Below, piece after piece: positions 4,056 through 58,378 of a DNA stretch of 64,000 nt (within the stretch, counting starts at the first letter, position 1; each line of letters begins with the position of its first letter). A program made the position numbers and the translations under genes. The notes under the pieces were generated by a model, which ran no database searches, had not been told where the DNA came from, and saw only the letters and a program-made list of their open reading frames with translations. Origin of the DNA: Strigamia acuminata (taxonomy: Eukaryota); assembly GCA_949358305.1 (NCBI GenBank), contig OX442314.1, positions 6,696,001 to 6,760,000 of the forward strand. Reading direction: 5' to 3'.

Positions 4056-4452
4056 TTAGGGCTTCATTATGAACGGAAATTGGCAACCCTTTTGCTGACG
4101 GTACCAATTAACGATGTTTAAAATCCAAGGGTATAGAGACATCAATGACATTCCCAAACCTAATCCTACAATGCTGCCCACATCGCTTATCAATTGCGAT
4201 ACTGGATAAGCTTGTTTTTCTTCTGTGGTCTCGATTAAACTATCAGCAAATCTAACACCTATGCCTGTCTTAAACTCAAACGGATATTCACTCCCTTGTA
4301 AAATGGTTTGGTAATAAATAATTTCACAAGGTTGTTTACATTTGCAATGTTTGTGATTTGAGTTATAATTGTTTAAGTACATAAAATGAGCGGTTGTGAC
4401 GTCCATTGTAGTGTTGCAAGCCGGTAAGATAGGTTTTGCCATATATGGTAAT
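4056..4452 (-). CDS. DEG/ENaC (pickpocket-like) channel, terminal exon with Cys-rich thumb end and TM2
   Basis: tttcag acceptor, then RLPYM...LPAC...CKCKQPCE...EEKQAYPVSQLISDVGSIVGLGLGMSLMS and a stop. Confidence 0.85.
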
Positions 4453-6000: not shown

Positions 6001-6272
6001 CTGCGGTATCTCAAGCATATTTATTAGAAATTTGTTTGAAATAACCCGGATTGCAGCAATGTATAGTTTGCTTGAGGTGCAAAAAATATAACTGCTTTTG
6101 GACGTGTTTTTGAATGTGTGAATATTTGTAAACAGTCATGTTGTGCTAATTGACAAAATCGGAGCTGAGGTGTAAAAATATCTGAAATACTACCTGCAGT
6201 TAATACTTTGAAATAAATTGTTGTGGATGCAGGCCTTTTTACACTCGAAATAAGCACTTGTGTTTTTTTCAC
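6001..6272 (-). pseudogene. Possible degenerate DEG/ENaC extracellular exon
   Basis: Ends at AG|GTAAAT in the phase needed to join the R-LPYM exon at 4452 and contains NYTLLQ, but has two in-frame stops near 6021-6026. Similarity is weak. Confidence 0.3.
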
Positions 6273-6394
6273 ATGGATTGGGCTTCGTATTTCTTCGTAT
6301 AGTCTATTTCATCAAATGAAAGTACTTGGTAAAAGCTTATAAACAAGGTGGGCCAAGAGTCATAAAGCAGTCTGAAGTAATAACTTCTTTCATC

Positions 6395-9350: not shown

Positions 9351-9931
9351 ACAATGTATTTAGATCCAACCTTTATTGTATTCAAGTCTCAGTGCTGCTC
9401 GGAAACTCACCCAGACTTTCAATTTACCACAGTCCATTTTTCTAAATTAAAATATTTATTAGTGTAATTAACATTATGTGCAATTGTTGCAAACATTTAA
9501 GGTGTATTTTGGAGAAAATATTTTATCCCACCTTTAGATCCGGGCGACATACTTTTGGAGGAAATAGCGATTTAATCATTAGACCAATGCCTATGAAACC
9601 TTTTTCTGAAAAACATTAGAAAGATCAGAATCAGGGTTGGCTACTTTTCAGATTAAGTACATCAATATTAAGATTAATATTAATATACATATTAAGAATA
9701 ATTCTTTATTGTGAGTATTGTTAATAGTTTGTTGTTTCGTATTAGTTATAAGACGATTGACCATCCAGAGGCACTTAGATTTTTATTAGAAGTAAGTACT
9801 GGTTCAGTGTTGGGTTGATCTGCTACTGCAAAAAGAGTAGCACAACGCAGTATGTGCTACTTTGATCTAAGTTAGCCATTAAGTTAGAAAACTTGTAGCT
9901 TGCTGTTTCTACAGGTTACATTTTTCTTTAA

Positions 9932-12680: not shown

Positions 12681-14765
12681 TAACATTTCAAACCTTTTTT
12701 TGTCAAAACTTTTCAGTAAGAAATAATTTTTTTAAGAAGAGTTCCAGACTAATTAGATGGTTCTCTACAACTTTGTAATTGGAAATTTTGCTTTAACTTG
12801 ATTGGTTTAGAAGTTAGCAAGTGACTTTTGAGGTCAAATTTGAGGATCCCATTAGATTCGCAATGAAATATTTCCCTTATGAGTTTTTCTTCAGTTTTCT
12901 GATATCTCAGGTATTTTGGAAATTACTTGGGGTGGTTCAGACTTTTGGGCCACCCTGTATACTTCACTTCGAACCAACAATTCGTTGTAGAAATACTAAG
13001 ATTACTTATATTTCGTGTAAGCATCTAGAGTGGGCTGAAAACCCACAGACGCATTCCCTCCCGCTTCATGCCAACATCCCGTTGTAGAATGTAGAATCTA
13101 GAGTGAAGCAATTCACAGACGCATTGTAATGTAGTATTTAGAGTGAAGTAATTCACAGACGCATTATTGGAGTAGCCGAGCGGAGTCATTTCCCGGTTAT
13201 TCTCCCGCCAGCCAGAACCGTGTTGGAGTAATTTCCCGGTAATGGATAACCTTTCCTGCGAGAAACTTCTTGATTCAATTCGTTGTTGGTTGATGGAACA
13301 TTTAAGCATGGCTTAGATGTTGATTGCACTGGGGCAAAAATAGCTCGGCGCTATTTTAATATATTCTTTATTTTCACAGTTTTCCCTCAGTTTTGCAATT
13401 ATTATCAAGACTGAAGCCTTCAAGTGATATTATTTTAGGGCTTTTGCCAACCAATTGTATATTTTAACGTACCGTTATTTTAGCCATTTGTAGGCCTAGT
13501 ATTTATATAAATTCCAACTCGTAATAAATTGTTATATGTTTTGAGAAAACATGCAAGCCTCCTTTTTACACTTATAGTTCACATGCAGTTCACACTTTAA
13601 TTGTTATGCAATTGCTATCTTGAAAAGGTAATCGTCACAATGTGCTCATGAAAATTTGGATTATTCTAAACTTTCTGAACTGACTGTAGACTTTAGACGT
13701 TTGATTGTAGGATGTTGGATGTTGGGTCAGAATTATTGATCCTCGAGTTTCTTAGTAAAATTTACCAATTTGTGTTCTCTGATCAGTCTTGAATTTTTCC
13801 ATGATTAATCTTTTAAGTCTTCTTTACAAAATAATTTTAAAAAAATTTAAAAAAAAAATTATTTTAAGAAAGGTTATTTTTCCTCACCCTGTACTTGGCT
13901 AATGAAACTGTATTTTTGTATTCTAGACGATTTTGAAGCTAATTATGATTTTAATGATCTCGCGAGATCAAAAGTAGCGCAAGATATGTTTCGCACATCC
14001 CAGTGTGCGTGAATCGACAGTGGCACTGTCGATTCGATCAATGGGGTTAAATTGACCATTAGTGACAATAAATAATAGAGGAAATATTGGTTATTTTAAC
14101 ATAGTTTTCACGAGTTTGTGGGACTAACCTGAGACTGCAGGAGAGGAACCACCTACTCAATTACCAGCCCACAAAATTCGCCTCTTTTCTTAGCCCCCAC
14201 CCGCGCCAAAGTTTCATCCCGTTTCGCTAAGCCACAAGCAAATAAGAAAATCAATCAATACCCGTATAGAGGGCAAAGCTATTCTAATCATTTTTAACAC
14301 CAAAAACTCACTTTTTGGATGTTACGTTCGTTTTTTGGTCGAGTCACTTGGAGTAACTTGCACTGGGATATTTGGAATCCCGTTCAACAAATCCCACAAT
14401 CCTCCTCGATGTGTCGATGTGTCGACGTTCCGCGTCACGTCATACAAACGTGCCGCGCCAGATCATCAAAACCTGACTTGGTTTACGCCATGCCTCGCCA
14501 ACCCAAACCATGGGTATCAACAATAGCGGCGCCGCTATTGTTGATACTACTGATTTGCAACAAGATGACTTGGGTCGGATTTGAATGCCGCGCCAACTAA
14601 TGCCGCGCGGAGTACTCGTCACCATAGATTAATTGATTATGGTAATTACTTTTCGTAGAATACCTTTTTTTATTTGTGCGCAATCACCAGAGGGAAGTGG
14701 AATAGGATTCATGGCTGTTTTCTATAATAAAGAAAACAACACATTTTCATTGTTCGGTTTATATT

Positions 14766-15570
14766 TTAAAAATGCAGTATATCAATTACTATTGTCGTAA
14801 CACGAATTTTTTTGTAAACAGTGAGTGAGTTCCAAATATCTTCCACTGATAATTCGACATTGAACAAATGCCAGGGTGATATGTTGCTACAAGTTTTATT
14901 GGTGTTTTTAAGTAACTGTAATCTCACTTTGTCCATTATATCATTTTGTTGTTCTCCACAGATGGTGATGGTAGGAAACTCATTATATCGCTGATGAACG
15001 ATTTCATCGCTTATAGTTACCGGTTCATCAATGTAGTAGTTGAAACGAATGTGCAGGCAAAATAAAGTAAATCCTGCACTAACTAACACAAGTATTAACT
15101 TTATTTTTTCTAAGACTTTATTTGTTTTTGTTTGATCTTCACGTGCAATGACTTGCTTTTTGCATGTCTCGTAAAGAAGGCGGATCTTATTAACGGGTCT
15201 TTTTCGTTGGTTGTTTGATGCGATGCAATGTAAATACCAAATGATTTTCGGTATTGAGACCAAAGATAGACCAAGAAACAGGCCCAGATTACCTCCTAAA
15301 TCTGACAATAGAGCAATAACGTCATAGGTGTAACGTTCTTCATATACAGTAATTTTTTCATTTGTTATTGCTAAAGATAAGGACGTCCTTTTCTCATCAT
15401 CTGCTCTGTTTGCATCAGTGTGTGGTGTAAACATTATTTGTTGACATGGACGTTGACATAGACAATCAGTAATTGGGTTCAAGTACTTTAAGCGCAAAAT
15501 AAATTCGTATTTTTGCGATGTATTGTTTGAACATTTGCAAAGTGGTAAATCTATTTCCATGAAGGGGAAT
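14766..15570 (-). CDS. DEG/ENaC exon encoding the end of one channel unit (TM2) fused in frame to the start of a second unit (TM1, FPTITIC)
   Basis: One open frame: RFPFM...LPLC...CLCQRPC...YEERYTYDVIALLSDLGGNLGLFLGLSLVS, ~40-aa basic linker, IKLILVLVSAGFTLFCL...YYIDEPVTI...EFPTITIC. AG acceptor at 15571-15572 and possible GTAATT donor at 14789. Confidence 0.85.
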
Positions 15571-17310
15571 CTTGTATCGAAGATATTTAATTACTAGTAC
15601 TTTTTAAATTGCGTAATATCAAGCACGGATCAGTAGATGCATTCAAAGTTAAAATCCAAATTTGACTTTCATAATCTGAATTATTGATAACTCATAACTC
15701 ATTTGATAAGTTGAATGTCAAGTCAATATCAATGTGGCTTATTTGTGTGAAGTATTATTTAAGTCAGAGATAATTGTTGTAATTTGCATCATAAAATTTA
15801 TAAGTTAATCAAAACATGTGACCTATTTGATCACTTTGATAAGTTATTAAAAATGGATGCCACTTCAGCACAATCTAACTCTAAAACAGAACAATTCCAG
15901 CAAGAAACTGGTCTAGAAATGAAAGAATGGAATTTGCTAACTAGGTTGCTCATCAACACACACCTAGGCAAAGGTAAGGCTAGTAATGATTTTTTTCTTG
16001 TTTTTCAATGGTGATGCATGTTCAATTTCCAAATATAAATAACATCTATCTCAATGCGCACTTTCCTTGAGATAATAAATAAAATGATTTTATTGATATT
16101 ATTAATGGAGCCATTAAGTCCATTAATGTCATTAAAATCATTTCATTTTATTAAGTTTCAAATAGGATGCTGTTTTTGTAGTACCGGTAACTATTTTTTA
16201 AAGTTTTTTTTTATTTTAAAATGCTTGTTTGTTTCATTAAATATTTTAAACTAAAAAATGCATTTTATTAACCCTCGCAGTACCATCCTAAAAAAAATCC
16301 CTTACTCACCCATTTTTTACCCCAAGCCGAAAATTTTTTTCCAAAAATGAGTGAAAATGATTTTATTCTCTGAGTATTTCATGTTTATGAAGAAATTTAA
16401 GCAATTCGGTATTTCTCAAAAGAGAACGACAAAAATAATTGACATTGTATTCAAAAGTAGTGAGTAAACAATGGAATTTTGCAAAAATTTTTTTTTGCAA
16501 TTTTGCAATCTATTAATTTTTTTATTGTTTGTTATGCTTTTGATGTTAAATGAAAATACATGAAATTTCAGAATGGAAATCCCAATAGTTTTCGAGAGAA
16601 AAAATAAAAACATTTTTGGAGGTCAAAATTGAGCCTAGGTTGGGGTGGGAAGGATTAAAAAATAAAAACAAAATTGCAACATTTTAATAATTAGAAAACT
16701 AGAAACAATAAAAAAAACACCGAATTATTTTTTTTGCGGTAGTGCACAGTCTCAGGATGGGATCCCATTGGCCTAGCCATATTACGCCTAACCTGAGACT
16801 GTGCACTACCGCAAAAAAAATAATTTGGTGTTTTTTTTAACTCGAGTTAGGCCAATCTTGAAGTGGGTTTGAGTATATTTGACTTATCTGGCTTATCAGT
16901 AAGCCAGATTTATATATCGTATTGCCGCATATAATAGCCGGGGCTTTTAAAAATTTTCTTGACCCGTTTATAGAATTTTCGTTCCAAGTCCGCCAGGCGA
17001 TAAAACGGTTCCCGGCGCCTTTTTGAGGCAGTACGGTAAGTCAGGTTTTGATGCATGCTTTGATGTACTTTAAGATCACTTTCTGGGTCTGATAGGTCAT
17101 TTCAAACAAATCATGTGTCATAAGTCATTTGACTTTGATTTTGAATGCACCTAGTGTCACCTTGATATGTTCTTACCTGCATGTCAGATGTATTTTATAA
17201 CTTTTTAATAAACAACTTTGATAGCATTTTTTGTATCCTTTTTCACTGGAGCATGAATTTATAGGCGAATTAAGAAATATAAGCTAAAATTAAATACCAG
17301 TTTGTACATG

Positions 17311-19909: not shown

Positions 19910-20539
19910 TGTGGTGATTCGGCATCACCTGAAGATATAATTAGGGGGTAATTATATTATTATTGATTCTTGACACTAGAGTGCGCCAGAAACGGTGACT
20001 AGACTGACTAGTCCTTAGTTTCTGCGAACCTGCATAATCACTACGATTTGCATATGACGTTATTTCCGGTTGATATATAAGATCGAAGCTTGACCGGAAA
20101 CGACACTACAGTTACCACATTTCAGCAAGAGCACCATTTACCTCACCTTTCAGGCCGTTTCACGGATTGATCGAGGACCGGTGCCCGCTGACCATTCAAC
20201 TGTACAACAGCCACATTTATTTAGCGTAGCCAAACAACGCTAGAATAAATATCCAAGCGATATTCGTTTAATTCGCACGAGAAAGCGAATTCTCGCGTGT
20301 TCATTATAACACGTGGAAATAACCCTAGACAACAACACAGACCACGCGTAGGACTAAACAATAGGATCCGCCATTGTTTAGCGGCGACTCGTATTCGCAG
20401 AAGAATCCGAGGACCATCACTGGAATCATCTAAACCATTACTGTATTAGTAAGCGCGTTAATAAAGCAGTATTGCAACATATATCATATTCCCGAGTACT
20501 ATTATTTATTATCTTTAACCACAAAGTCGAATCACGACA
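19910..20539 (+). repeat. G1 5' LTR
   Basis: Direct repeat of 31111-31740 with about 5 differences by eye. TATATAA at 20074. Confidence 0.97.
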
Positions 20540-20541
20540 CG

Positions 20542-20559
20542 TGGGGGTCTGTCCGGGAT
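20542..20559 (+). promoter_or_regulatory. Primer-binding site, tRNA-Pro-like
   Basis: TGGGGGTCTGTCCGGGAT versus the canonical TGGGGGCTCGTCCGGGAT. Confidence 0.8.
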
Positions 20560-20631
20560 AGATTTGCTAACCTTAAGACAATACTTTAAATAATAACCGG
20601 GATCTTTCGATCGATCATTATATCGTAAGAA

Positions 20632-23580
20632 ATGACGAAAACCACCGCTGAAGACCGAAAGAAGCGCAACGACGAAAAGGAGAAAAAAGAAGCCGAAGAA
20701 ATCGAGCGTCAAAAAGCCGAAGAAGTCGACCGCCAGAAAGCCGAAGAGATCGACCGTCGAAAGGCCGAAGAAATCGAGCGTCGAGAAGCGGAAGAAGCGA
20801 ACCGTATAGAACAAGGAATCGAGACTAGCTCGACCGAAATTCTAACGGAGTCCACGAGTGAATATCTTCCCCTCGCTAGGCAACTCCTATTTACGGGAGG
20901 CGAGTTTGGAACAAGTAGCTCTCACGAAACGAACAGACTAAATAAATCGTTTGAGAATCCACAATTCGGATTGAAAAGTCCAAGGGGAGTCGGGAAGGAC
21001 GCCAGCGAATTAGACCTGATGACGCTTTTAACGAAGGCAGCAAATACTGGCGCCGCAATTGTTAACGAGGCCGCTCGAGCCGAGCAAGCCAGAGCTGTCG
21101 CATTGGAAGCCAAGAAAAACGAATTGATGGAAGAATTAGCCAGGGAACACCGCGAGAAGCTAGCCGCGGTAGAGCAAAATTTGGCCCGCGAACGCCAAGC
21201 CAAACAAATGGCTGCCGCCCGCGAAAGCCAAGAAAAGCAAATAGCGCTGGAGCGCGAGCTGACCCGCGAACTGCTGGCAAAGCAGAAAATCATCGAGCGA
21301 GAGATGGCGAAAGACTACAAAGTCCCGCCACCGAATAATGGGTCGAGTCGACGCTCAGAGACAGACTCTAGGCAAGACTCCCCAGAGCGATCCTACTCAG
21401 CTAAGGAACTGGTCGCTAAAGCAATAGAAGTAACTCGAGAGGCCTGCGCGCACGGGATCGAGATCGATCAGGACAAAGACCCGTATGAAGAACTAGAAAG
21501 GGTAATCGACCTGGTAAATCAAAGGACCGAGAAGAGAGCAGCAGAAATTTCGACGAGACGCGGAGAAAAACGACGTCGAGTCGGAGCGGATCGACAGCAG
21601 ACCGAGACCAACGAAGAAGCAGCCTCGGACAGCGAAAGCATCGACTCACTAGCCTCCCACAGCAATATTCGAGTTACCGCACTAGACAGCATAGTAAACG
21701 AATCGGGCGAGGTTCAAGGAGAGCTGTACGAAGCATTTGTGCAAGATAGTCGAAATAATCAGGGCGCCGAGTCATGGGCGTTAAAAAATACCTTCGCGAT
21801 GAAAACTGGCCTAACCAGTAACATGCATCCGAGCGACCCTAATTCCGAACTAATTCGGTGCATAAATCAAAAGAACCAAATACGAAATGAAGCGGGTCGT
21901 AATAAATTGGCCATGCCAACGCTCGAGGAGATCAACGCAGTTAAGAATCACCTCGAAAAGAAGCACGCCGCCGAAGCCTATGCTGGAAGAGACGCCTTTG
22001 TATTCATCAAAAAAGTAGACGGAAAGCCCACGGGGACTCGATTGGACGACCTGATACCACCCGGAACTCAACTGGGTCAAACTACGGCTCCCGTAAAAAC
22101 GACCCCCGAAAGCTCAACAGTAGCACAAGACCTTACGAATAATCCGAATCCCGTAGGGTTACGAGGACAGACGCTATTCCAGCCGAACCAACTCGGAGCT
22201 ACAAGACAGGGCAACCATTTCCCAAGTCTTCCCTCCAACAATACTCGATCGTCGCCACCGCTTAGTGAGACTGACTCGCTAAGCGACAAGCTACAGGCGA
22301 TGAAAGACGAACTCCTCCAGGCAGTGGACCAGAAATTCCAACAAAACCATAGCCAAAGCAGTGAGGAAGACGACCGGAGCGAGGGATTACTGAAACGTTA
22401 CTCTGCGGACCGATGGTTGTACGCCCGTAAGGACAACAACATCAAATGGACGACTTTACGACTAACCAAGTTTGACGGATCATGGAATGCCGGAAACTTC
22501 TTTCTCGACGAAGTCGCTTTGACGATAAACCGACTAGGAGCGGAACCCGACGAAATGGTCGCGCGGAGAGTACCGGAAATGCTCATACACCGAGCCAGAA
22601 TCTGGTACAACAAGGTCCAGCCCCGAAATTGGGAAGACTTTATCATCAAGTTTCACAACCAATTTGGCGAGACGAGCCAAGAAATCCAGAAAAGAGTAAG
22701 CTCCATGCAGCAAGCTCCCGGAGAAACGCTGAGAGAATATGTACAGCGAGCAGATAGTATGTTTCGAGAAATGGACAAGCCATTTAATCAACATGCGCAA
22801 AAAGCTCTCTTCGAGCAGGGCCTGAACCCAACCGCGACGAAAGTCTTACGGGACATGAACGCCCCTAGAGGAGACAACTTTACCGCCATTTTTGCATTTG
22901 TTGAGAAGAAACACACCGAAGTAAACGCTCGGTATAACGAAGCTCTGACGAAGGAAGAACGAGCTCTGGGGGTAGCCAGACAGCAAAGAATCCAAGAGAG
23001 AAGCATAGACTCCGCTAAGCTGCTCCAGTCCCAGAACTACCTGAACGGAAGCATCGAGCCACTCCCAACGAAAAAGAATCAACAAACTTCCAACCCGATA
23101 CCACCGCCAAATAAGGCCTATCATACGCAGACTAACACTGCCGAAGAGAAGTCCGAGGATGAAGAATGTGAGCAATCTGAGCAATACTCGGACAGTGACG
23201 AAGTCGATGAACAAATCAACGACGTTGTCCACGCGAATATGGGGAAAGAGCTGGCGCCCAGCTATCGTCCGCAAATGAAGACCCAGAAAAAATCAGAGCA
23301 TCATAACCCAAAAGCAGAAGCGGCCTCCGAGAAGAAAGAGAATCCCAAAAGGCCATTTACGCTAGGGAAGAAAAGAAGCCCCTGCAACTTCTGTGAGGAG
23401 GACGGACACTGGCGCCAAAACTGCCCGAAGTGGGCCAAAAAGAAGGCTGACGACAAGATCGCGGAACGGGAGGAGATAGTAAAGCTGCTCGCCAAAGAGC
23501 AAGAAAAGATGATGAAAGAACTTACTGCTAAGTTTGGTGAAATGACAAAAAACTGGAATTCGCGGGCGGAACAAAAATAA
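20632..23580 (+). CDS. gag: Gypsy Gag (982 aa; long coiled-coil N-terminus, capsid region, CCHC knuckle)
   Basis: ARIWY...NWEDFIIKFHNQFG...QQAPGETLREYVQR and CNFCEEDGHWRQNC. Confidence 0.92.
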   Translation: MTKTTAEDRKKRNDEKEKKEAEEIERQKAEEVDRQKAEEIDRRKAEEIERREAEEANRIEQGIETSSTEILTESTSEYLPLARQLLFTGGEFGTSSSHETNRLNKSFENPQFGLKSPRGVGKDASELDLMTLLTKAANTGAAIVNEAARAEQARAVALEAKKNELMEELAREHREKLAAVEQNLARERQAKQMAAARESQEKQIALERELTRELLAKQKIIEREMAKDYKVPPPNNGSSRRSETDSRQDSPERSYSAKELVAKAIEVTREACAHGIEIDQDKDPYEELERVIDLVNQRTEKRAAEISTRRGEKRRRVGADRQQTETNEEAASDSESIDSLASHSNIRVTALDSIVNESGEVQGELYEAFVQDSRNNQGAESWALKNTFAMKTGLTSNMHPSDPNSELIRCINQKNQIRNEAGRNKLAMPTLEEINAVKNHLEKKHAAEAYAGRDAFVFIKKVDGKPTGTRLDDLIPPGTQLGQTTAPVKTTPESSTVAQDLTNNPNPVGLRGQTLFQPNQLGATRQGNHFPSLPSNNTRSSPPLSETDSLSDKLQAMKDELLQAVDQKFQQNHSQSSEEDDRSEGLLKRYSADRWLYARKDNNIKWTTLRLTKFDGSWNAGNFFLDEVALTINRLGAEPDEMVARRVPEMLIHRARIWYNKVQPRNWEDFIIKFHNQFGETSQEIQKRVSSMQQAPGETLREYVQRADSMFREMDKPFNQHAQKALFEQGLNPTATKVLRDMNAPRGDNFTAIFAFVEKKHTEVNARYNEALTKEERALGVARQQRIQERSIDSAKLLQSQNYLNGSIEPLPTKKNQQTSNPIPPPNKAYHTQTNTAEEKSEDEECEQSEQYSDSDEVDEQINDVVHANMGKELAPSYRPQMKTQKKSEHHNPKAEAASEKKENPKRPFTLGKKRSPCNFCEEDGHWRQNCPKWAKKKADDKIAEREEIVKLLAKEQEKMMKELTAKFGEMTKNWNSRAEQK

Positions 23581-23597
23581 CTCCGTTACCGCTCGCG
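23547..23597 (+). promoter_or_regulatory. -1 ribosomal frameshift signal (gag to pol)
   Basis: A AAA AAC heptamer in the gag frame, 7-nt spacer, stem CGCGGGCGG/CCGCTCGCG. The -1 frame is open into pol. Confidence 0.85.
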
Positions 23598-23627
23598 ATA
23601 ACCTCCTCCTTACTGGACCTCACACTG

Positions 23628-26600
23628 GTGGAAAAACAGATCAAGGAGATGAAGAAAATACTGAAGTTCTATGAGGAAGCCGCCACACCATTTGACAAAC
23701 GGGAAATCGAAATTAGAGACGAAGATAGCATAGCCAAAGCTTTCATGACTTTACCGCTTGATCAAGGGGCCAAACCCCTTAAAAGGCGACTACTCCGCTG
23801 CAACCTGTCCACCGAGGCAAAAAGCACATTAGCCAAAATGCCTATCTCTTTCGGCAAAAAAGTGTTAATGGGACTACTCGATTCAGGAGCGGACCATTCG
23901 TTCATCTCCACTGACTTGTTCGAGTCACTCGACAAGAAGATAAAGAAAAAATTGAGGGGAATGAACGAGAACATCCGGGTCCTTACAGCAGCAGGCGAAG
24001 TCCGAGCGGTGGGAACCCTGTCAACCGATTTCGTGTGGGAGGGAGGTACGATTAAGCACTACTTTATCGTGCTACCGACCCGCGATACGATCCTATTAAT
24101 AGGCATGGATTTAATGGAACGAATGAACATCCAGCCCAACCCGGTCACGCGTTCGTGGAACTACATCGATAATCACGAAGACCCAAGATTACCCATAATA
24201 CCTGCTGAGTTCCTAGAAAAATCTAAGAACGACGAGGAATGGGAAGGAGGCGAGATTAAAAAGTTCATTCAAGACTATAATTTCAAATTATTTAATACTA
24301 TCCTCCAAGAACAAAACTTAATACATAATCTGGCGGTCGATGCTAATCTGGGAGAGGAACGTACTAAACTCCTCGAGGAAATGCTTAAAAAACATTCTAA
24401 AAATCTGAACAAAGAGCCGGGGAAGACAAGTTACGTCATGCACGAAATCGAGCTAGTCACGGGCAAACCTGTACGAGTACCTTTCAAGACCATGAATCCT
24501 CAGAAGAGACATATCGTAAGGACAATGTGTCAGGAATTGCTCGAAAAGGGAATCGTTTCTAACGCAGTCGGAGAGTACGGAATGAGGATTGTCCTCGTTA
24601 TGCGACCAGGCTCCGAACCACGCCTCTGCATAGATTACCGACCTTTAAACGCCATAACTGTCATCGACCCCATTCAAATGCCATCAATAGAAGCGATTCT
24701 GCGAGAACTCGCCCCATTCAACTGGGTCACGACCATGGATCTATCCAAGGGTTACTGGCAGGTTGAATTGCGGGAGGAAGACAAGGAAAAAACAGCTTTT
24801 TGGGCACCCCAGGGCCGCCTCATGTTCAACGTGATGCCCTTTGGGTTAGTAAATGCCCCAGCCACCTTCCAAAGGCTAATTGAGAAAGTTCTCGGCGAAG
24901 CGCTGCATAAATACGCATGGGCCTACCTCGACGACATCGTAATCGTCTCTCAGACCTTCGAGGATCACTTGGTCTACGTGAACGACGTAATAGAACGACT
25001 CACAAAAGCCGGACTAAATATCCATCCGGGAAAAAGTAAATTTTGTCGCAAAGAACTGGCATTCCTGGGTTACACTGTTGGAGTAGATGGCCTGTCCATC
25101 GACCCAAAAAAGACTCAAGCGATCAGCCAATTCCCAGCCCCAGAGGACATAAAAGGGGTCCAGCGTTTTATGGGCATGGTAAACTTCTTCAATCGGATGC
25201 TCCCAAATCTAGCAGACGTGGCAGCACCCATTACCGATCTATTACGCAACGACAAAGATTTCGAGTGGACTAGCCACTGCGAAACCTCTTTTAACAAAAT
25301 AAAACAAATGTTAATCGATGCAAAAAGAATTCCATTACCCGACCTCAATCGAGAGTTTACACTTCACACCGACGCCAGTCGAATCGATCTCGGTGCCGCG
25401 TTACTTCAAAAGCACACCATCGATGGAGTGGAACACGAGGTCCCAACAATGTTCATCAGTCGTAAACTACAAGCAGCGGAAAGAAATTACAACGCTACGG
25501 AGCTAGAGTGTCTAGCAGTAGTTTGGGCAGTCCGAAAGTTCCGGCCGTACCTGGAATTTACCAAGTTTAACGTGCAAACGGACCACGAGGCCCTAAATTG
25601 GCTGATGGGATTAAAAGAACCCTCCGGAAGAATGGCTCGCTGGCAGCTAGAACTGATGTCCTGCGATTTAATCATAGAATATCGGCCAGGCAAGTTCAAC
25701 GTAGTAGCCGACGCACTCTCACGTGCGCCAGCCTCTGAACCCGAAGACGAAACTGACTGCGGAGAGGACGATTCCCGCCTTTTCTACTGCCCAAACCCCA
25801 TTCGGAAATGGGAATTTAAAAAGCTGAACGAGTTACCCAAGAAGAAACTCGAGTCGGGAGACCAAAATTATTACAATTACTGGCTTCGAGCGTACCAGTC
25901 AGTCAAAGACGCTCACCCCCACCACGAATTAACGATCGAACCTCGAATTTCGGATAAATATGTTCGAGCATTCGTCGCTCACGTAACTAAGGGAACGACT
26001 AGCAAGCCGCCCACTAGGGACGAATTAATAGCCGCCCAGGTGAAGGACGATTTCTGTAAAATTTATCGAGAATTCATCTTAAATAAAAAATTCCCCGACG
26101 AGACGTTCGACGAAATTCAACGCGAGGAATTCGAGAGAGCGGCCTCCTCATACTTAATCGAGGATGGACTTCTATTAAAACACCACCCGAATTTTCGCGA
26201 TGACCTGACGGAAACAGGAACTTCGATGAAGGTCGTTATCCCCAGGAGTCTGCTGACCAAGTTTTTGTGGATGGTCCACGGACACCCGCTCGCCGGACAT
26301 TCTGGAGTGGCCAGAACGATCTACAGAGCAAACCAACTTTATTTTTGGCCAAAAATGACCAGGGATATCGTTCGTTTCATACATCATTGTTCCAGATGCC
26401 AAACATGTAAACCCAGGACGCAGAAGAATTACGAGAAAATCTCACTCGGCCCCTTCGCCCCCTTTGATTGCTGGAGCGTAGATCTAATGGGCCCGAAACC
26501 AACGTCCTCAAATAAAAACAAATACATCTTGGTAATTATGGACGTCGCGACTGGTTGGCCGGAACTCTTCCCGATGGAAAGGCCAACGAAACAGAAAATT

Positions 26601-27608
26601 ATTCGATGCCTCTACGAAGTCGCACTGCATTTCGGATTCCCTCGGAAACTAATCTCCAATAATGGGCCACAATTCACGTCAAATTTATATAAGGACTTCT
26701 GCAAAAAGTTCGACATCGAGCCATCGTACACATCGACCTATAACCCACGGGCCAATCCCGTGGAAAGGCTGAATCGCGACATAAAATACGCCTTGGCGAT
26801 TTTTACTGACGTTCACTCCAGCTGGGACGAATATCTTCGTGAAATCGCCTTCAGCATTCGTACAACGATCTCGAGGAATCGCAAATTCTCTCCAGCGTTT
26901 CTAAACTTCGCTCGGGAACTCAGAGTACCCTGGGACCCGCGAATACCAGAAGGAATACTGGAAGTCGATCCAGAAAAACCACATCTTTACGTCGATAAAT
27001 TGGAACAAGTAATTACGGCCACGTATCAGCACATGATGTCGCACATCTTCGACATGAGAGATTGCATTAACGCTGCTGGAAAGGATCGGCCCTTCTGCAA
27101 CTTTAAAGTCAATGACCTCGTCTGGAAAGACACACATATTCAGTCCAGCGCTGATAAGGGAATCCACGCGGGCTTAGCTGATAAACGAGACGGCCCTTAC
27201 GTCATCATTGAGGCGCACGGCGGAAACGCATTTAAACTGAAAAGATTGGCGGACAACGTTAATTTCAGATCCATCAACGCTCGGGAATTAACTCCATACT
27301 TACCCGAGTTCCCTCAAGAAGCTTGGACAGAAAATCAAACGAAACCAGCTCAATCTCCGATTGTTCGCGATATGTTTCTAGATGAACAAACTGAACAGAT
27401 CAGTTTAATTCAAGACGAGTTACACGAGTCAGCCGACGCCCCAGATGATCTTTCGGAGAGGGAGGAAATAGTCGATATATCTCCTAAAAAAGGAAAACAA
27501 TCAAACAAAAATAAGGCTACAGGAATCCCCAAACCTGATAAAGTCTACGGTATGCGCCGGCACAAACCAAATCCGTTCATCAAGGATGGAAAAATAGTCG
27601 GAAAATAG
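23628..27608 (+). CDS. pol: Gypsy Pol (protease, RT, RNase H, integrase); probably entered by frameshift at ~23553
   Basis: LLDSGAD, MDLSKGYWQ, MPFGL, YLDD, TDAS, ELECLA, HHCC finger, VDLMGP...ISNNG...VERLNR. Confidence 0.97.
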   Translation: MEKQIKEMKKILKFYEEAATPFDKREIEIRDEDSIAKAFMTLPLDQGAKPLKRRLLRCNLSTEAKSTLAKMPISFGKKVLMGLLDSGADHSFISTDLFESLDKKIKKKLRGMNENIRVLTAAGEVRAVGTLSTDFVWEGGTIKHYFIVLPTRDTILLIGMDLMERMNIQPNPVTRSWNYIDNHEDPRLPIIPAEFLEKSKNDEEWEGGEIKKFIQDYNFKLFNTILQEQNLIHNLAVDANLGEERTKLLEEMLKKHSKNLNKEPGKTSYVMHEIELVTGKPVRVPFKTMNPQKRHIVRTMCQELLEKGIVSNAVGEYGMRIVLVMRPGSEPRLCIDYRPLNAITVIDPIQMPSIEAILRELAPFNWVTTMDLSKGYWQVELREEDKEKTAFWAPQGRLMFNVMPFGLVNAPATFQRLIEKVLGEALHKYAWAYLDDIVIVSQTFEDHLVYVNDVIERLTKAGLNIHPGKSKFCRKELAFLGYTVGVDGLSIDPKKTQAISQFPAPEDIKGVQRFMGMVNFFNRMLPNLADVAAPITDLLRNDKDFEWTSHCETSFNKIKQMLIDAKRIPLPDLNREFTLHTDASRIDLGAALLQKHTIDGVEHEVPTMFISRKLQAAERNYNATELECLAVVWAVRKFRPYLEFTKFNVQTDHEALNWLMGLKEPSGRMARWQLELMSCDLIIEYRPGKFNVVADALSRAPASEPEDETDCGEDDSRLFYCPNPIRKWEFKKLNELPKKKLESGDQNYYNYWLRAYQSVKDAHPHHELTIEPRISDKYVRAFVAHVTKGTTSKPPTRDELIAAQVKDDFCKIYREFILNKKFPDETFDEIQREEFERAASSYLIEDGLLLKHHPNFRDDLTETGTSMKVVIPRSLLTKFLWMVHGHPLAGHSGVARTIYRANQLYFWPKMTRDIVRFIHHCSRCQTCKPRTQKNYEKISLGPFAPFDCWSVDLMGPKPTSSNKNKYILVIMDVATGWPELFPMERPTKQKIIRCLYEVALHFGFPRKLISNNGPQFTSNLYKDFCKKFDIEPSYTSTYNPRANPVERLNRDIKYALAIFTDVHSSWDEYLREIAFSIRTTISRNRKFSPAFLNFARELRVPWDPRIPEGILEVDPEKPHLYVDKLEQVITATYQHMMSHIFDMRDCINAAGKDRPFCNFKVNDLVWKDTHIQSSADKGIHAGLADKRDGPYVIIEAHGGNAFKLKRLADNVNFRSINARELTPYLPEFPQEAWTENQTKPAQSPIVRDMFLDEQTEQISLIQDELHESADAPDDLSEREEIVDISPKKGKQSNKNKATGIPKPDKVYGMRRHKPNPFIKDGKIVGK

Positions 27609-27824
27609 CGAAGAAAAAACATCAAGTAAAACTCCGGCCATTGTCTCAAATGAGAAAAACAACCACAGGGGGGACACCTGTTACGTCCCACAATGCGTCC
27701 TAATTGGCCAAACCAATCAAAGACGACATGAGACTAATAGTTAACCTCTAACCCGACCCACAATTATCACTGTCATCTCCAGCGAAGGCGACGAAGAGAT
27801 CGCTCCACATCGCTCCAAAAAATC

Positions 27825-27971
27825 ATGAAAAGAAATGATTGGAAGAAGGAAATCGAAAAAGCGCTGGATAACGTCTCCGAAGACGACGATGAAAATCAAG
27901 TCGAATTGTTACAGATCGTGTTAAACGAAGACGATGGAAATTGGGATGATCCCAATGACCACCAACCCGAC
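27825..27971 (+). CDS. G1 third gene, exon 1 (49 acidic residues)
   Basis: ATG at 27825, ends at a phase-0 donor GAC|GTAAGT. Conserved in G2 at 55394-55540. Confidence 0.7.
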
Positions 27972-28238
27972 GTAAGTAAAAAATACATGAAATTCAATTT
28001 TCGGTAATTAAAAGTACGAGATAAGTTCGTGGACTGACCACGAACGACGAAATAACTCAACTTTAAGTGACAAATTGTCAATCCAAACAAACGCCGAAAG
28101 AAAAATTAACTTCGCAACACGTGCCCGAAAAGCACATGGCCGACCAAGACGCCATCTTGTGTCAAAAGAAGACAACTCTTCAAAATCTAACAAACTGGCC
28201 AACTTTTCTAATATATCCATTTTATTTCTAATATTCAG

Positions 28239-30908
28239 GATGGATATCGAACCACGTGGGGACAGATCGACCCGAAACGAGTCTCAGCAGGAAGTTTATG
28301 GCGCGAAGTCATCCACATATTGTTCCGCCAAGCATTGGAAGAATTGGTCAACTTTGATCCATGGAAAATCCGCTTGTTACTGTCCCGTGCGATCAGCCGC
28401 TATTGGTCTAGCCAACAAACGCTGATCCACTATATGCCGCGACAATACCACGAAGCGTTACGGGCGGTCATTTCAAGGAACATGGACCCGCCGGCGCCAA
28501 TCCCAAATCCATTGATCCGAGCCGCCTTTCCGGACGACGAAAGGGGATGGGAAGTCTACGAACAGTGGCGCGACGCCGAAACGGACGAGGAAAAACACGA
28601 AATCCACATGGCGTATTATGAAGAAGTGAGAATGAACGCTCACGATGAAGTTTTCAAGTATCTGCAGCCCGACGGTTATTCAACGGAAGAGATCAAGATT
28701 TGGCTGCAACAAATCCAGGGCAACCGACCCGATCGCCCGGATTGGAGACCGCGACACGGTTTCATCCGCTCACAACGGGCAATGCACCAACTATATTATC
28801 TCGGTTTCTTCGGCCGCAAACGACAAAAGGCCGAAAAACGCCTCTCTAACGAGCACGACGAAGGCGGTTGCTCAGCAAAAAAGCCGTGCCTGGACAAACC
28901 AAGCACTTCCGGCAGTTCAACCAAAAAGAAACCCGCGACAAAGAAACGCCTGGCCAAACCAAGCGTCTTCACTCGCCTCGAAAGAGGAAGAAGCCCACAC
29001 GCCTCACAACCTCGTTCCCAAGATGTCCCGTCGACTGGCCGAAGAAGAAGATATTCTCCCGAGCGCTCAAACCACCGAGACGACCGACGGAGGAGCGATA
29101 AAAGTCAAGAATCGTGGGACGAATATCGCAGAGATTACTTCCAAAGAAGGGAAGAGAAAAAAGAAACTTGGAAGCGATATAGAGAAGACTACATACGCGA
29201 GCGCGAAGAAAAAGCCAGACGCGCGAAGGAAGACGTCCGTAGACAGGACGAGAGGAGAAGAAAAATGTCCAAATCCCGCGCACGAGCATGGAAGACTCAT
29301 CGCGAAGAAGAACTGCGACAACGAGTCGAAAGGCGTTACGAAAATGTCAAAACAATTCGGGACAAACCCGAACCGATGAAGATCGACGATGACGTAATCC
29401 TCGACGAAGTCCCCGACCAAAAGAAGATTTATACACAGGCGGATCTCGTCGCAAAAATTCTAGAATATCAGAATGCGCAACCGAAGCCAGTATACCGCCG
29501 GACGCTATCTACTGTCTCAAGCCTGGAGACGACGCCGAGCGCCTTCATCAAGCCCGAATTACCAGCGGCGGGGAGTGAAACATCAAACGCCAGTCTCCCA
29601 GGCGCCTTTCGAAGGAAAGTAATAATAGGTGCGCCCACACTGAGCTCAATCGAACAACTCGAGAAAAGAGAAGCTCGCTTTGGACCGGCCAAAGGCAAGC
29701 CCTCCCCAGAAGTTTCGACAGCCAGCACTTCCAGAACTCCGATTGTTTGGGACAAGCCCGAACCGGACAAACCACGACGCCTGATCACGACTACCGCCCA
29801 GCCGCCAGTCTCCGCAGGCTCCATCGTGACTCAAGCCTTAGCGCCAATCAACCCTTCTGAAGGGACGTTGCAGCAGTTTCTGGACACGACAACCGTGGAA
29901 CAGGCGAGATCCCTTCTGGTCGAGATGGATTCGTACCAACAAAACGTGATTCAAAACGTTATCACGAATCTCCAGAGGATTTCGATCGAATACACGCAAA
30001 ATAAGAGTCGGGACCATCCAAATTGGAATACTAGGATAGTCGTAGCGATCACAGATCTAATGTCCATACTCCTAGCCGCCGCCACCTTTCGAAACGCGCG
30101 CGTCGCCGTTGCGGCTTGGATTGTGGTGGCCCACGAAGGATTTCAGGTCCCGCCGGCCCTCGTAGAGAGCTGGACTCGCCTGGTACCCTCCGCAGCGGTC
30201 GTTCGGGCTCAGATGGTGGCCCAAGATCCAAACCCCGAAGCCTCATACCAAAACGTGCGGGCGGTCATTCGGAATCCACCTCCGTCGCCTCCAGCCGCTG
30301 ATACCGTCATGGAAGACCTGGACTCGACAGATTCGGTTCCACCTCCTCCTCCTCCGCCTACCGAGAAGAAGAAGGCTCCCGAGCAACTGGCCAAACCAGT
30401 CCAACTCGCGAAGAGGAAGACCAAATCGACGATGCTTCGCCCTCAGCCGCAAGATAAGGCTCCAGAGCCAACACCACCCCGGATCGCGCCGAGATTAACA
30501 TTGTACTATCCGGGCTTGTCTTTAACCGAAGACACCAAGCAAAAGTTGTTACAAACTCCGGATCGCGGCTTCTCCCTTTACGTGTGGATGAAAAAGGCTA
30601 TTGAAGCTGGGCCAGGAAACAACATGTTCATCCAGCACCAGCGACTACTCCGAGCCCATCGAGCGCCGACCAGCGTCGCCGAAGCGCAAAGGATCCATCA
30701 CACGAACCAGGGGATGGCCCCCTTTCTACCCCAAATTTGGGCGCATGAGAGAACGGGGAACCCTTTAGAGCCTCCCGGCCATCTACGATTCTACCTGAAT
30801 GAAAGCGAGGATCCGACAGATTACTCGTCCAGATTGACCACATCTTCTAACCTGGACAAACCAAGTTCGGAAGATAAAACGAGCTACGCCAATAATCTGA
30901 AGAAATAA
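28239..30908 (+). CDS. G1 third gene, exon 2 (889 aa, function unknown, not env-like)
   Basis: TTTTATTTCTAATATTCAG acceptor. The frame is open from 28239 and includes the 862-aa ORF in the track. Mostly synonymous divergence from G2 in the terminal regions. Confidence 0.85.
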   Translation, partial: DGYRTTWGQIDPKRVSAGSLWREVIHILFRQALEELVNFDPWKIRLLLSRAISRYWSSQQTLIHYMPRQYHEALRAVISRNMDPPAPIPNPLIRAAFPDDERGWEVYEQWRDAETDEEKHEIHMAYYEEVRMNAHDEVFKYLQPDGYSTEEIKIWLQQIQGNRPDRPDWRPRHGFIRSQRAMHQLYYLGFFGRKRQKAEKRLSNEHDEGGCSAKKPCLDKPSTSGSSTKKKPATKKRLAKPSVFTRLERGRSPHASQPRSQDVPSTGRRRRYSPERSNHRDDRRRSDKSQESWDEYRRDYFQRREEKKETWKRYREDYIREREEKARRAKEDVRRQDERRRKMSKSRARAWKTHREEELRQRVERRYENVKTIRDKPEPMKIDDDVILDEVPDQKKIYTQADLVAKILEYQNAQPKPVYRRTLSTVSSLETTPSAFIKPELPAAGSETSNASLPGAFRRKVIIGAPTLSSIEQLEKREARFGPAKGKPSPEVSTASTSRTPIVWDKPEPDKPRRLITTTAQPPVSAGSIVTQALAPINPSEGTLQQFLDTTTVEQARSLLVEMDSYQQNVIQNVITNLQRISIEYTQNKSRDHPNWNTRIVVAITDLMSILLAAATFRNARVAVAAWIVVAHEGFQVPPALVESWTRLVPSAAVVRAQMVAQDPNPEASYQNVRAVIRNPPPSPPAADTVMEDLDSTDSVPPPPPPPTEKKKAPEQLAKPVQLAKRKTKSTMLRPQPQDKAPEPTPPRIAPRLTLYYPGLSLTEDTKQKLLQTPDRGFSLYVWMKKAIEAGPGNNMFIQHQRLLRAHRAPTSVAEAQRIHHTNQGMAPFLPQIWAHERTGNPLEPPGHLRFYLNESEDPTDYSSRLTTSSNLDKPSSEDKTSYANNLKK

Positions 30909-31110
30909 GATGATTGCAGCTTCAATCAAAAAGGAATTTCGTTTCTAGTCATAAGTTAATCATGTCTATACGAATGAACCTCTTTTTTAAAGTGTATAAT
31001 AATTTTTTACTAATCACCTCATCCTCATTATAATAAAAGTATTTGTTTTCGTGATGATGTTTTTCAGTTTATTTTAGAGGGTCCCGATAGTTTATTCTCG
31101 GGGAGGGACG

Positions 31111-31740
31111 TGTGGTGATTCGGCATCACCTGAAGATATAATTAGGGGGTAATTATATTATTATTGATTCTTGACACTAGAGTGCGCCAAAAACGGTGAC
31201 TAGACTGACTAGTCCTTAGTTTCTGCGAACCTGCATAATCACGACGATTTGCATATGACGTCATTTCCGGTTGATATATAAGATCGAAGCTTGACCGGAA
31301 ACGACACTACAGTTACCACATTTCAGCAAGAGCACCATTTACCTCACCTTTCAGGCCGTTTCACGGATTGATCGAGGACCGGTGCCCGCTGACCATTCAA
31401 CTGTACAACAGCCACATTTATTTAGCGTAGCCAAACTACGCTAGAATAAATATCCAAGCGATATTCGTTTAATTCGCACGAGAAAGCGAATTCTCGCGTG
31501 TTCATTATAACACGTGGAAATAACCCTAGACAACAACACAGACCACGCGTAGGACTAAACAATAGGATCCGCCATTGTTTAGCGGCGACTCGTATTTGCA
31601 GAAGAATCCGAGGACCATCACTGGAATCATCTAAACCATTACTGTATTAGTAAGCGCGTTAATAAAGCAGTATTGCAACATATATCATATTCCCGAGTAC
31701 TATTATTTATTATCTTTAACCACAAAGTCGAATCACGACA
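31111..31740 (+). repeat. G1 3' LTR
   Basis: Follows the PPT and is followed by the AAGT TSD. Confidence 0.97.
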
Positions 31741-31744
31741 AAGT

Positions 31745-33761: not shown

Positions 33762-34390
33762 TGTCGTGATTCGACTTTGTGGTTAAAGATAATAAATAAT
33801 AGTACTCGGGAATATGATATATGTTGCAATACTGCTTTATTAACGCGCTTACTAATACAGTAATGGTTTAGATGATTCCAGTGATGGTCCTTGGATTCTT
33901 CTGCGAATACGAGTCGCCGCTAAACAATGGCGGATCCTATTGTTTAGTCTTACGCGTGGTCTGTGTTGTTGTCTAGGGTTATTTCCACGTGTTATAATGA
34001 ACACGCGAGAATTCGCTTTCTCGTGCGAATTAAACGAGTATCGCTTGGATATTTATTCTAGCGTAGTTTGGCTACGCTAAATAAATGTGGCTGTTGTACA
34101 GTTGAATGGTCAGCGGGCACCGGTCCTCGATCAATCCGTGAAACGGCCTGAAAGGTGAGGTAAATGGTGCTCTTGCTGAAATGTGGTAACTGTAGTGTCG
34201 TTTCCGGTCAAGCTTCGATCTTATATATCAACCGGAAATGACGTCATATGCAAATCGTCGTGATTATGCAGGTTCGCAGAAACTAAGGACTAGTCAGTCT
34301 AGTCACCGTTTCTGGCGCACTCTAGTGTCAAGAATCAATAATAATATAATTACCCCTAATTATATCTTCAGGTGATGCCGAATCACCACA
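33762..34390 (-). repeat. G2 3' LTR
   Basis: Reverse complement of the G1 LTR, with adjacent PPT. Confidence 0.97.
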
Positions 34391-34591
34391 CGTCCCTCCC
34401 CGAGAATAAACTATCGGGACCCTCTAAATAAACTGAAAAACATCATCACGAAAATAAATACTTTTATTACAATGAGGATGAGGTGATTAGTAAAAAATTA
34501 TTATACACTTTAAATAAGAGGTTCATTCGTATAGACATGATTAACTTATGACTAGAAACGAAATTCTTTTTTGATTGGAGTTGCAATCATC

Positions 34592-35576
34592 TTATTTCTT
34601 CAGATTGTCGGCGTAGCTCGTTTTATCTTCCGAACTTGGTTTGTCCAGGTTAGGAGATGTGGTCAATCTGGACGAGTAATCTGTCGGATCCTCGCTTTCA
34701 TTCAGGTAGAATCGTAGGTGGCCGGGAGGCTCCAAAGGGTTTCTTGTTCTCTCATGAGCCCAAATTTGGGGTAGAAAAGGAGCCATGCCCTGGTTCGTGT
34801 GATGGATCCTTTGCGCTTCGGCGACGCTGGTTGGCGCTCGATGGGCTCGGAGTAGTCGCTGGTGCTGGATGAACATGTTGTTTCCTGGCCCAGCTTCAAT
34901 AGCCTTTTTCATCCACACGTAAAGGGAGAAGCCGCGATCCGGAGTTTGTAACAACTTTTGCTTGGTGTCTTCGGTTAAAGACAAGCCCGGATAGTACAAT
35001 GTCAACCTCGGCGCGATCCGGGGTGGTGTTGGCTCTGGAGCTTTATCTTGCGGCTGAGGGCGAAGCATCGTCGATTTGGTCTTCCTCTTCGCGAGTTGGA
35101 CTGGTTTGGCCAGTTGCTCGGGAGCCTTCTTCTTCTCGATAGGCGGAGGAGGAGGAGGTGGAATCGAATCGGTCGAGTCCAGATCTTCCATGACTGCATC
35201 AGCGGCTGGGAGTGATGGAGGTGGATTTCGAACGACAGCTCGCACGTTTTGGTACGATACTTCGGGGTTTGGATCTTGGGCCACCATCTGAGCTCGAATG
35301 ACCGCTGCGGAGGGTACTAGGCGAGTCCAGCTCTCTACGAGGGCCGGCGGGACCTGAAATCCTTTGTGGGCCACCACGATCCAAGCCGCAACGGCGACGC
35401 GCGCGTTTCGAAAGGTGGCGGCGGCTAGGAGAATGGACATTAGATCCGTGATCGCTACGACTATCCTAGTATTCCAATTTGGATGGTCCCGACTCTTATT
35501 TTGCGTGTATTCGATCGAAATCCTCTGGAGATTCGTGATAACGTTTTGAATCACGTTTTGTTGGTACGAATCCATC
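34592..35576 (-). pseudogene. G2 third gene, C-terminal piece
   Basis: Near-identical protein to the last 327 aa of the G1 ORF3. Cut by Copia B. Confidence 0.93.
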
Positions 35577-35911
35577 TGTTAGAATTGCTTAGAAGCTTGT
35601 GTGAATTGCATAGATCTGCAATGGTGTGGGAAAAGTCCAAAGGTAAGAATCAGCCAGGTGTTCACAGGTGTGAATCTAAACATAGAGTGAGAGCTTTATT
35701 CTCAAGTCATGTGACTCCTTAAGTATACAGTGCCACCTATAGGCATATTACAACAGTTAAATATGTGAGACATTGCAAACACTCGTAATGTGAAAAGGCA
35801 AAAGCAAACAAATACACATGTAACAATTGAGAACATTATCGCTTGTTCATACGATAGAAATACATAGTAAATAATAAGTACGACAAGTTAACAATCGGCC
35901 CCCTCGTATAA

Positions 35912-38118: not shown

Positions 38119-38147
38119 TGGTAGCAGAGGATGGTTGCGATCCATCG
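38119..38147 (+). other. Extended PBS: 29-nt complement of tRNAiMet positions 76-48
   Basis: TGGTAGCAGAGGATGGTTGCGATCCATCG, with one mismatch (G38137) against the vertebrate-type tRNAiMet sequence as I recall it. Confidence 0.85.
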
Positions 38148-58331: not shown

Positions 58332-58378
58332 CAGTGTGAGGTCCAGTAAGGAGGAGGTTATCGCGAGCGGTAACGGAG

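What the first reader, a model, noticed from the sequence alone, without database searches (positions are those of the whole stretch)
14766..15570. Natural concatemeric DEG/ENaC: TM2 of one unit fused in frame to TM1 of the next
Seen: one uninterrupted frame runs from the Cys-rich thumb end and TM2 (SDLGGNLGLFLGLS), through a ~40-aa basic linker, into a second hydrophobic TM1, YY..EPV and FPTITIC (14978-14958). A second, different TM2 exon (SDVGSIVGLGLGMS) lies downstream at 4056-4452. Both thumb exons start at the same intron position and phase (AG|A: R-FPFM versus R-LPYM), which points to internal duplication. Established: DEG/ENaC channels are trimers of separate 2-TM subunits. Inference: this gene encodes at least two units in one chain, which would fix stoichiometry and give an asymmetric pore. 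The fusion lies within one exon, so it is not a gene-model merge. Caveat: intervening exons are unclear and may carry stops, so this copy could be decaying.
Basis: partly seen in the sequence, partly recalled or inferred. Interest (0 to 1): 0.78.

Follow-up and report, generated by a model that had tools for sequence, protein, structure and literature searches.

The report
Two-in-one sodium-channel subunit of centipedes
This gene joins two different DEG/ENaC ion-channel subunits head-to-tail in one reading frame, a layout shared by about 25 centipede gene models, and it would likely build a channel with a pre-set, lopsided subunit make-up in a family known for separate subunits.

Summary
Confirmed and extended. 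One exon (15570-14790, minus) runs without a stop from the thumb and TM2 of one DEG/ENaC unit through a 40-aa basic linker into TM1 of a second. Seven exons with canonical AG/GT ends and matching phases give 540 open codons: the end of unit 1 plus a complete unit 2. It is not a one-off. Four Strigamia maritima models match the junction at 52-54% identity. 25 S. maritima models among 150 hits carry it. Second units form their own clade, so the two-unit gene is old. Paralogs in this organism's own DNA contigs also bridge the linker. A two-unit relative is predicted to fold as two BRTNaC1-like units. Three-unit models exist in S. maritima (in pieces), shrimps and a midge. Limits: no RNA was tested, and assembly is untested. 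This copy's first-unit 5' exons are not in the window. An upstream LTR element lacks its target-site duplication, so this copy may be truncated or mis-joined. Ten literature searches found no description.

The parts
17177..17283 (-). Exon D1: start of the Cys-rich thumb of unit 1 (phase 0 in, phase 2 out)
   Evidence: AG/GT ends, phase fits the next exon; aligns without a break to S. maritima T1JGJ4/P0004, 52% over 287 aa
14790..15570 (-). Fusion exon A: thumb end and TM2 of unit 1, linker, TM1 and finger of unit 2
15264..15305 (-). TM2 signature of unit 1 (DLGG...GLS)
15108..15227 (-). 40-aa basic linker, predicted cytoplasmic; no stop, no Met, no His-Gly motif
   Evidence: equal length and 15-20 of 44 columns identical in three S. 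maritima models
14958..15107 (-). TM1, YY..EPV and FPTITIC of unit 2
14664..14721 (-). Exon B of unit 2 (palm, 'GxC' strand)
9532..9605 (-). Exon B2 of unit 2 (palm strand, 'LFP..VC')
   Evidence: weak on its own (HMM E 3.8), fixed by splice phases and gap-free alignment to P0003
7058..7153 (-). Exon C of unit 2 (beta-ball/palm)
6194..6303 (-). Exon D2: thumb start of unit 2, counterpart of D1 (110 versus 107 nt, same phases)
4056..4452 (-). Terminal exon E: thumb end, TM2 of unit 2 (DVGS...GMS at 4187-4146), stop
63379..63560 (-). Decayed paralogous copy of exon E, with its middle part inverted (not part of this gene's frame)
   Evidence: 84% over 113 nt on the minus strand and 78% over 69 nt on the plus strand
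19910..31740 (+). LTR retroelement upstream of D1, clean insertion (4-base target-site duplication)
33762..62048 (-). Second copy of that LTR element with nested elements; its flanks do not match, so it marks a possible rearrangement or assembly join

Best explanation
The locus encodes two divergent DEG/ENaC units head-to-tail in one reading frame, belongs to an old and large centipede subfamily, and is likely made as a single four-helix chain that would fill two of the three positions of a DEG/ENaC trimer, the third likely coming from a one-unit partner or from one unit of a second chain. Shown: the open frame, splice-compatible exons, the conserved junction and position-specific unit lineages. 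Inferred: TM2 of unit 1 ends in the cytoplasm and a roughly 40-aa, predicted helical linker leads into TM1 of unit 2, as in engineered ASIC concatemers. Both units keep the Gly that lines up with the PDPNaC1 G378 constriction and the GxS belt, so both probably line the pore. They differ one turn above (Gly versus Ser), which would make the pore asymmetric. With no His-Gly motif, the channel is likely a poorly selective cation channel like PDPNaC1. The family's expansion and kinship with antennal BRTNaC1/PDPNaC1 suggest a sensory role, with pairs of extracellular domains fixed in place. Whether this particular copy is whole is open (about even odds).
For: Seven-exon, 540-codon model without stops, all AG/GT. 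S. maritima T1IYF0 matches it at 51% over 352 aa across exons A to E. T1JEH2 and T1JEG4 carry unit 1 back to TM1 in the same chain. 31 of 150 listed hits have TM2 followed by TM1 within 130 aa (one, P0018, is a model artefact with zero spacing). 25 of them are named S. maritima, with 27 junctions of 39-74 aa, median 53. Whole-unit tree: 18 second-unit-type rows form one clade (SH-aLRT 95); the window's units group by position with their S. maritima counterparts (100 and 100). Own-organism contigs at about 81-84% identity bridge TM2-linker-TM1 (3 distinct paralogous records). Of 40 listed variant letters, 19 are synonymous and 0 make stops, against 23-29% synonymous expected (p 0.0007-0.009). 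AlphaFold2 of two-unit T1JD34 with a 26-row alignment: pLDDT 71.5, pTM 0.65, two DEG/ENaC folds; best PDB matches BRTNaC1 and PDPNaC1. Engineered two- and three-unit ASIC fusions give currents (PMC4529235, PMC10329638, passages).
Against: The first-unit 5' exons (TM1 to palm) were not found in the window (best HMM E 0.53 and 0.12, versus 1e-9 for control exons). A broken paralog's last exon lies upstream on the same strand. One of 5 LTR elements checked lacks its target-site duplication. All relatives are automatic gene models, most of them partial. The synonymous excess in the linker alone is weak (9 of 22, p 0.02-0.08), only 40 of 146 variant rows were shown, and each letter was scored alone. 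One bridging paralog contig has a +1/-1 indel pair in the linker. The linker is low-confidence in the model (pLDDT about 47-51). Two units do not divide evenly into a trimer, and no partner was identified. Engineered concatemers also shed lower-order products. First units do not form a supported clade in the whole-unit tree.
Confidence: 0.6

Rival explanations
1. The chain is two-unit but self-sufficient. Three chains build two linked pores, or chains cross-link trimers into clusters, or one unit of a chain is left outside the pore as an accessory sensor. No one-unit partner is needed.
For: Engineered 2-unit ASIC1a fusions give currents alone (PMC4529235 passages). No clear free one-unit member of the second-unit clade was found: P0059 starts at a Met in a linker-like stretch, and P0039 and P0066 look like partial models.
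Against: A short, partly helical linker would favour neighbouring positions in one trimer (inference). One-unit relatives exist in the wider clade.
Confidence: 0.25
2. The architecture is real for the family, but this window's copy is a recently 5'-truncated pseudogene, cut off by recombination between LTR elements. This can hold together with the best explanation, which concerns the family.
For: First-unit 5' exons not found in the window, including the roughly 6 kb of non-LTR DNA upstream of D1. Unmatched flanks at 33762-62048 while 4 other elements match. A broken paralog exon sits next door.
Against: All 7 remaining exons are open with canonical sites. An assembly join between 99%-identical elements, or an intron over 46 kb, would look the same.
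Confidence: 0.4
3. The gene works like a bicistronic unit. Internal starts, alternative splicing or cleavage in the basic linker release two ordinary one-unit subunits.
For: The linker is rich in Lys/Arg. Engineered fusions show lower-mass products. Some S. maritima models begin at a linker Met (P0059).
Against: The window's linker has no Met and no stop. Linker length is held at 74-75 aa motif-to-motif in the three close relatives measured. It would face the cytoplasm, away from luminal furin-type proteases (recalled knowledge).
Confidence: 0.08
4. Two chains form a pseudo-tetramer (dimer of two-unit chains), as in K2P or two-pore channels.
For: Two-unit chains fit a fourfold pore arithmetically. 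One study reported tetrameric ASIC1a after cross-linking (PMC4529235 passages).
Against: The closest solved relatives are trimers (three chains per entry; PMC12714832 passages). Three-unit models occur in the same family.
Confidence: 0.06

Closest known systems
BRTNaC1 (PDB 8YMR) and PDPNaC1 (PDB 9JF7), Scolopendra antennal DEG/ENaC channels
   Same: Best PDB matches by sequence (E 5e-11 to 9e-12) and by fold (TM-score 0.72-0.73 and 0.64 over the target). Same 55-row branch. Compact ectodomain. PDPNaC1 also lacks the His-Gly motif.
   Different: These are one-unit chains of 431 and 421 aa forming trimers. Here two unequal units lie in one frame.
S. maritima uncharacterized models T1JEH2, T1JEG4, T1IYF0, T1JGJ4 (and T1JD34, T1ITL7, T1IPM9)
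   Same: Same junction, 50-54% identity for the first four; complete two-unit layout in the last three.
   Different: Listed only as uncharacterized, and mostly partial. The window copy supplies a complete unit 2 for this subgroup.
Engineered ASIC/ENaC concatemers
   Same: C-terminus of one subunit joined to the N-terminus of the next; functional and used to fix stoichiometry (PMC4529235, PMC10329638, passages).
   Different: Artificial; they keep the native tails and His-Gly loop plus flexible spacers. Here the natural linker replaces both tails.
Repeat-built channels such as Nav/Cav, K2P and two-pore channels (recalled, not tested)
   Same: Several pore-forming units in one chain, allowing asymmetric pores.
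   Different: Unrelated fold. There the repeat number divides a fourfold pore evenly; two units do not divide a trimer.

Membership tests
DEG/ENaC (each unit) | ASC domain (PF00858) | tested here: met
   E 1.1e-17 for exon A and 3.5e-12 for exon E, both above the curated cut-off
DEG/ENaC (each unit) | TM1 followed by the Y..P and FP.(I/V)T.C motifs | tested here: met
   Unit 2 in the window. Unit 1 only in S. maritima relatives; not found in the window
DEG/ENaC (each unit) | Cys-rich thumb and hand-shaped ectodomain fold | tested here: met
   Thumb cysteines in both units. Model of relative T1JD34 matches BRTNaC1/ASIC
DEG/ENaC (each unit) | TM2 with G/SxS belt | tested here: met
   GLS in unit 1, GMS in unit 2
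DEG/ENaC (each unit) | Pre-TM1 His-Gly re-entrant motif (common, not universal) | tested here: not met
   0 of 27 linkers and 0 of 9 N-termini of the S. maritima set have it within 35 aa of the TM1 motif. PDPNaC1 also lacks it
canonical DEG/ENaC subunit (whole chain) | One ectodomain, two TM helices and two short free tails per chain | tested here: not met
   TM2-linker-TM1 in one exon; canonical topology per PMC3583452 passage. Filed as a tandem variant, not as a canonical subunit
DEG/ENaC (each unit) | Trimeric assembly | not tested
   No complex job sent: a two-unit chain plus a partner exceeds 1000 residues, and cut units would pass by likeness to solved trimers
DEG/ENaC (each unit) | Amiloride-sensitive, voltage-independent cation current | not testable with these tools
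   Needs expression and recording

The most novel reading that the evidence does not exclude
DEG/ENaC channels have repeatedly evolved natural concatemers. Centipedes carry a large family of two-unit chains plus a three-unit subfamily, and shrimps and a midge carry independent three-unit chains that would fold into single-chain pseudo-trimeric channels: the trimeric counterpart of how four-repeat Nav/Cav channels arose. The window gene is a two-unit member that fixes an asymmetric pair of pore-lining units.
Probability: 0.5. Interest if true: 0.9.

Novelty: new variant of a known kind. Interest (0 to 1): 0.76.

Why it matters
DEG/ENaC channels are described as trimers of separate two-helix subunits, and their subunit make-up is usually studied with artificial concatemers. 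A natural, old, expanded family of two-unit (and apparently three-unit) chains would show that evolution has hard-wired subunit order in this fold. It would let the units of one pore diverge, and it poses a sharp testable puzzle: how two units fit a trimer. It also changes how myriapod sensory-channel repertoires are counted. The sequences already sit in UniProt as uncharacterized models; ten searches of the held library found no description of the layout.

Tried and rejected
No whole genome was held, so exons beyond the window could not be sought. No RNA holder listed; both runs behave as DNA contigs of one study. Summed contig depth at TM2 and TM1 was far above single-copy level, but the tool states this is no copy number, so it is not used as a count. 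Single-sequence fold of T1JEH2 failed (pLDDT 31.9). Atlas search and VIA second look did not complete. No complex prediction was sent. Candidate first-unit exons at 19401-19559 and 63572-63706 were rejected: weak scores; the first lies in what resembles decayed mobile DNA (judged by eye), the second overlaps the decayed exon-E copy. Direct joining of exon B to an earlier acceptor near 7173 was dropped once exon B2 gave a gap-free match. The linker translation printed was out of frame and the P0004 linker count there failed; both were ignored. The first tree (C-terminal halves, quick search) placed the window's second unit weakly elsewhere; the whole-unit tree was preferred. Both are quick trees without bootstrap. 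Earlier scan findings: none. Literature searches without a description of natural tandem DEG/ENaC. Subscription papers and all supplements were not seen and could hold such a note.

Full report
Observation. The minus-strand frame 14769-15590 is open for 274 codons. It holds, in order, the thumb end, the TM2 signature (15305-15264), a 40-codon basic linker (15227-15108), a hydrophobic TM1, YYIDEPV and FPTITIC (14978-14958). Pfam ASC matches it in two stretches. Alignment to ASIC5 shows the C-terminal module before the N-terminal one. A 965-base contig of DNA run X1 covers 14584-15548 without a difference; this is probably the window's own source, so it only argues against a local assembly slip.

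Gene model. Guided by relatives and the raw sequence, I found seven exons: 17283-17177, 15570-14790, 14721-14664, 9605-9532, 7153-7058, 6303-6194 and 4452-4056. All have AG/GT ends and matching phases, and they give 540 codons without a stop. That is the thumb and TM2 of unit 1 plus a whole unit 2. The thumb exons of both units have the same phases and similar length (107 and 110 nt). The two C-terminal halves are only 43 of 157 identical, so the duplication or fusion is old. The model is inferred from DNA and homology; no RNA was available.

Relatives. The first search returned S. maritima T1JEH2, 54% identical across the whole fused exon including the linker. T1JEG4 and T1IYF0 followed. T1IYF0 matches the model at 51% over 352 aa, and T1JGJ4 at 52% over 287 aa, confirming exon D1. 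The organism is therefore likely a centipede related to Strigamia (inference). A full HMMER search found 338 proteins and listed 150. With TM1 and TM2 profiles built here, 31 of the 150 have TM2 followed by TM1 within 130 aa; one, P0018, is a zero-spacing model artefact. 25 are named S. maritima, with 27 junctions of 39-74 aa. Names were seen for only 33 of the 150. T1JD34, T1ITL7 and T1IPM9 show two complete units. In a quick whole-unit tree of 68 rows, 18 second-unit-type rows form one clade (SH-aLRT 95). The window's two units group by position with their S. maritima counterparts (100 each). First units form no supported clade. The closest subgroup has an ordinary N-terminus before unit 1 (P0001, P0005), so two units, not three, is the likely count for this gene.

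Three-unit forms. A separate S. maritima branch (support 100) has units that are each other's closest kin. T1IZL2 (TM1-TM2-TM1-TM2-TM1), T1IU28 (TM2-TM1-TM2-TM1-TM2) and T1IL99 together imply first, middle and last units, though no single model is complete. Three-unit models also occur in Polypedilum (KAG5672929.1, 1460 aa), Halocaridina (KAK7028032.1, KAK7013173.1) and Penaeus (XP_069977668.1, middle unit reduced). Two-unit models occur in Centruroides and Helobdella. The Penaeus 1001-aa frame stands on five assembled contigs of 3.4-4.0 kb, which would fit transcripts but is not shown to be. These fall on separate branches, suggesting independent origins. Some may be merged gene models.

Paralogs in the same organism. 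At 80% likeness, 130 contigs of X1 lie on 14930-15360. Three distinct paralogous records of about 81-84% identity bridge TM2, linker and TM1: one without gaps, one with a +1/-1 pair, one with a few gap letters including a 3-base insertion. Of the 40 variant letters shown (of 146), 19 are synonymous and none makes a stop when scored alone. Neutral expectation is 23-29% synonymous (p 0.0007-0.009). In the linker alone it is 9 of 22 (p 0.02-0.08).

Structure and pore. AlphaFold2 on T1JD34 with a 26-row alignment gives pLDDT 71.5 and pTM 0.65. It shows two DEG/ENaC-type ectodomains, a TM2 helix, a short turn and a long helix running into TM1 of unit 2; the linker is low-confidence. Best matches are BRTNaC1 and PDPNaC1, antennal channels of Scolopendra (PMC9974506, passages; PMC12714832, passages and section 10). 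Both window units keep the Gly that lines up with the PDPNaC1 G378 constriction and a GxS belt. One turn earlier, fused first units have Gly in 28 of 28. Terminal units have Ser/Asn in 7 of 10; the other three have Gly, two of them from the young branch. Rows are related, so this is a pattern, not a probability. No His-Gly motif was found in 27 linkers or 9 N-termini; PDPNaC1 lacks it too and is broadly cation-permeable.

Mechanism. Shown: two unequal units in one frame, conserved. Inferred: a single four-helix chain with both units lining one pore, completed by a one-unit partner or by a unit of another chain. Engineered ASIC fusions of two and three units conduct (PMC4529235, passages; PMC10329638, passages), so the topology is workable. 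The 2+1 reading is my best guess; self-assembly into linked pores is the main rival.

State of this copy. Profiles of the first-unit 5' part found nothing in the window (best E 0.53 and 0.12), while control profiles found exons C and D2 at 1e-9. The small exons B and B2 scored only 0.09 and 3.8, so tiny exons could be missed. Upstream lie two copies of an LTR element. Four of five elements checked have matching target-site duplications; the one at 33762-62048 does not. Beyond it is a paralogous terminal exon broken by an inversion. The copy may be truncated, mis-joined in assembly, or continue past the window.

Literature. Ten searches (listings only) and term look-ups in PMC5203786, PMC8438182, PMC7067487, PMC10148893 and PMC3583452 (passages) found no account of natural multi-unit DEG/ENaC chains. 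Supplements and subscription papers were not seen. The comparisons with Nav/Cav, K2P and two-pore channels are recalled.

Verdict. Real, conserved and apparently undescribed architecture: a new variant of a known channel family. Expression, assembly and the wholeness of this copy are untested. Interest 0.76.

Noticed in passing
window 19910-31740 and 33762-62048: Two young copies of one LTR retroelement (LTRs over 99% alike) in opposite orientation. The second holds nested elements (35577-47126, 37638-44703, 47768-54008) and lacks a target-site duplication. Both carry a further long frame on their own strand near the 3' end (28212-30905).
   Followed up: partly
window 63379-63560: Paralogous terminal exon with an internal inversion, suggesting a tandem cluster with turnover.
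   Followed up: yes
window 1-2313: Copia-like polyprotein frame on the minus strand, starting about 1.7 kb downstream of the gene's stop.
   Followed up: no
window 18249-19903 and 31740-32800: Related decayed repeats that by eye resemble Penelope-like element remnants (recalled motif, not tested).
   Followed up: no
window 33233-33720 and 11695-11864: Short tandem repeat arrays in non-coding DNA (self-matches).
   Followed up: no
P0022, P0094, P0102, P0130/P0151, P0149, P0021: Two- and three-unit DEG/ENaC models in a midge, two shrimps, a scorpion and a leech, apparently of separate origin.
   Followed up: partly
P0001 residues 1-162: The S. maritima model T1JEH2 begins with a near-exact repeat of its own residues 224-385, probably a merged neighbouring fragment.
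   Followed up: partly
joint 15554-17170: Paralog contigs join the end of exon D1 to exon A while skipping 1615 bases, hinting at a shorter intron in other copies.
   Followed up: no
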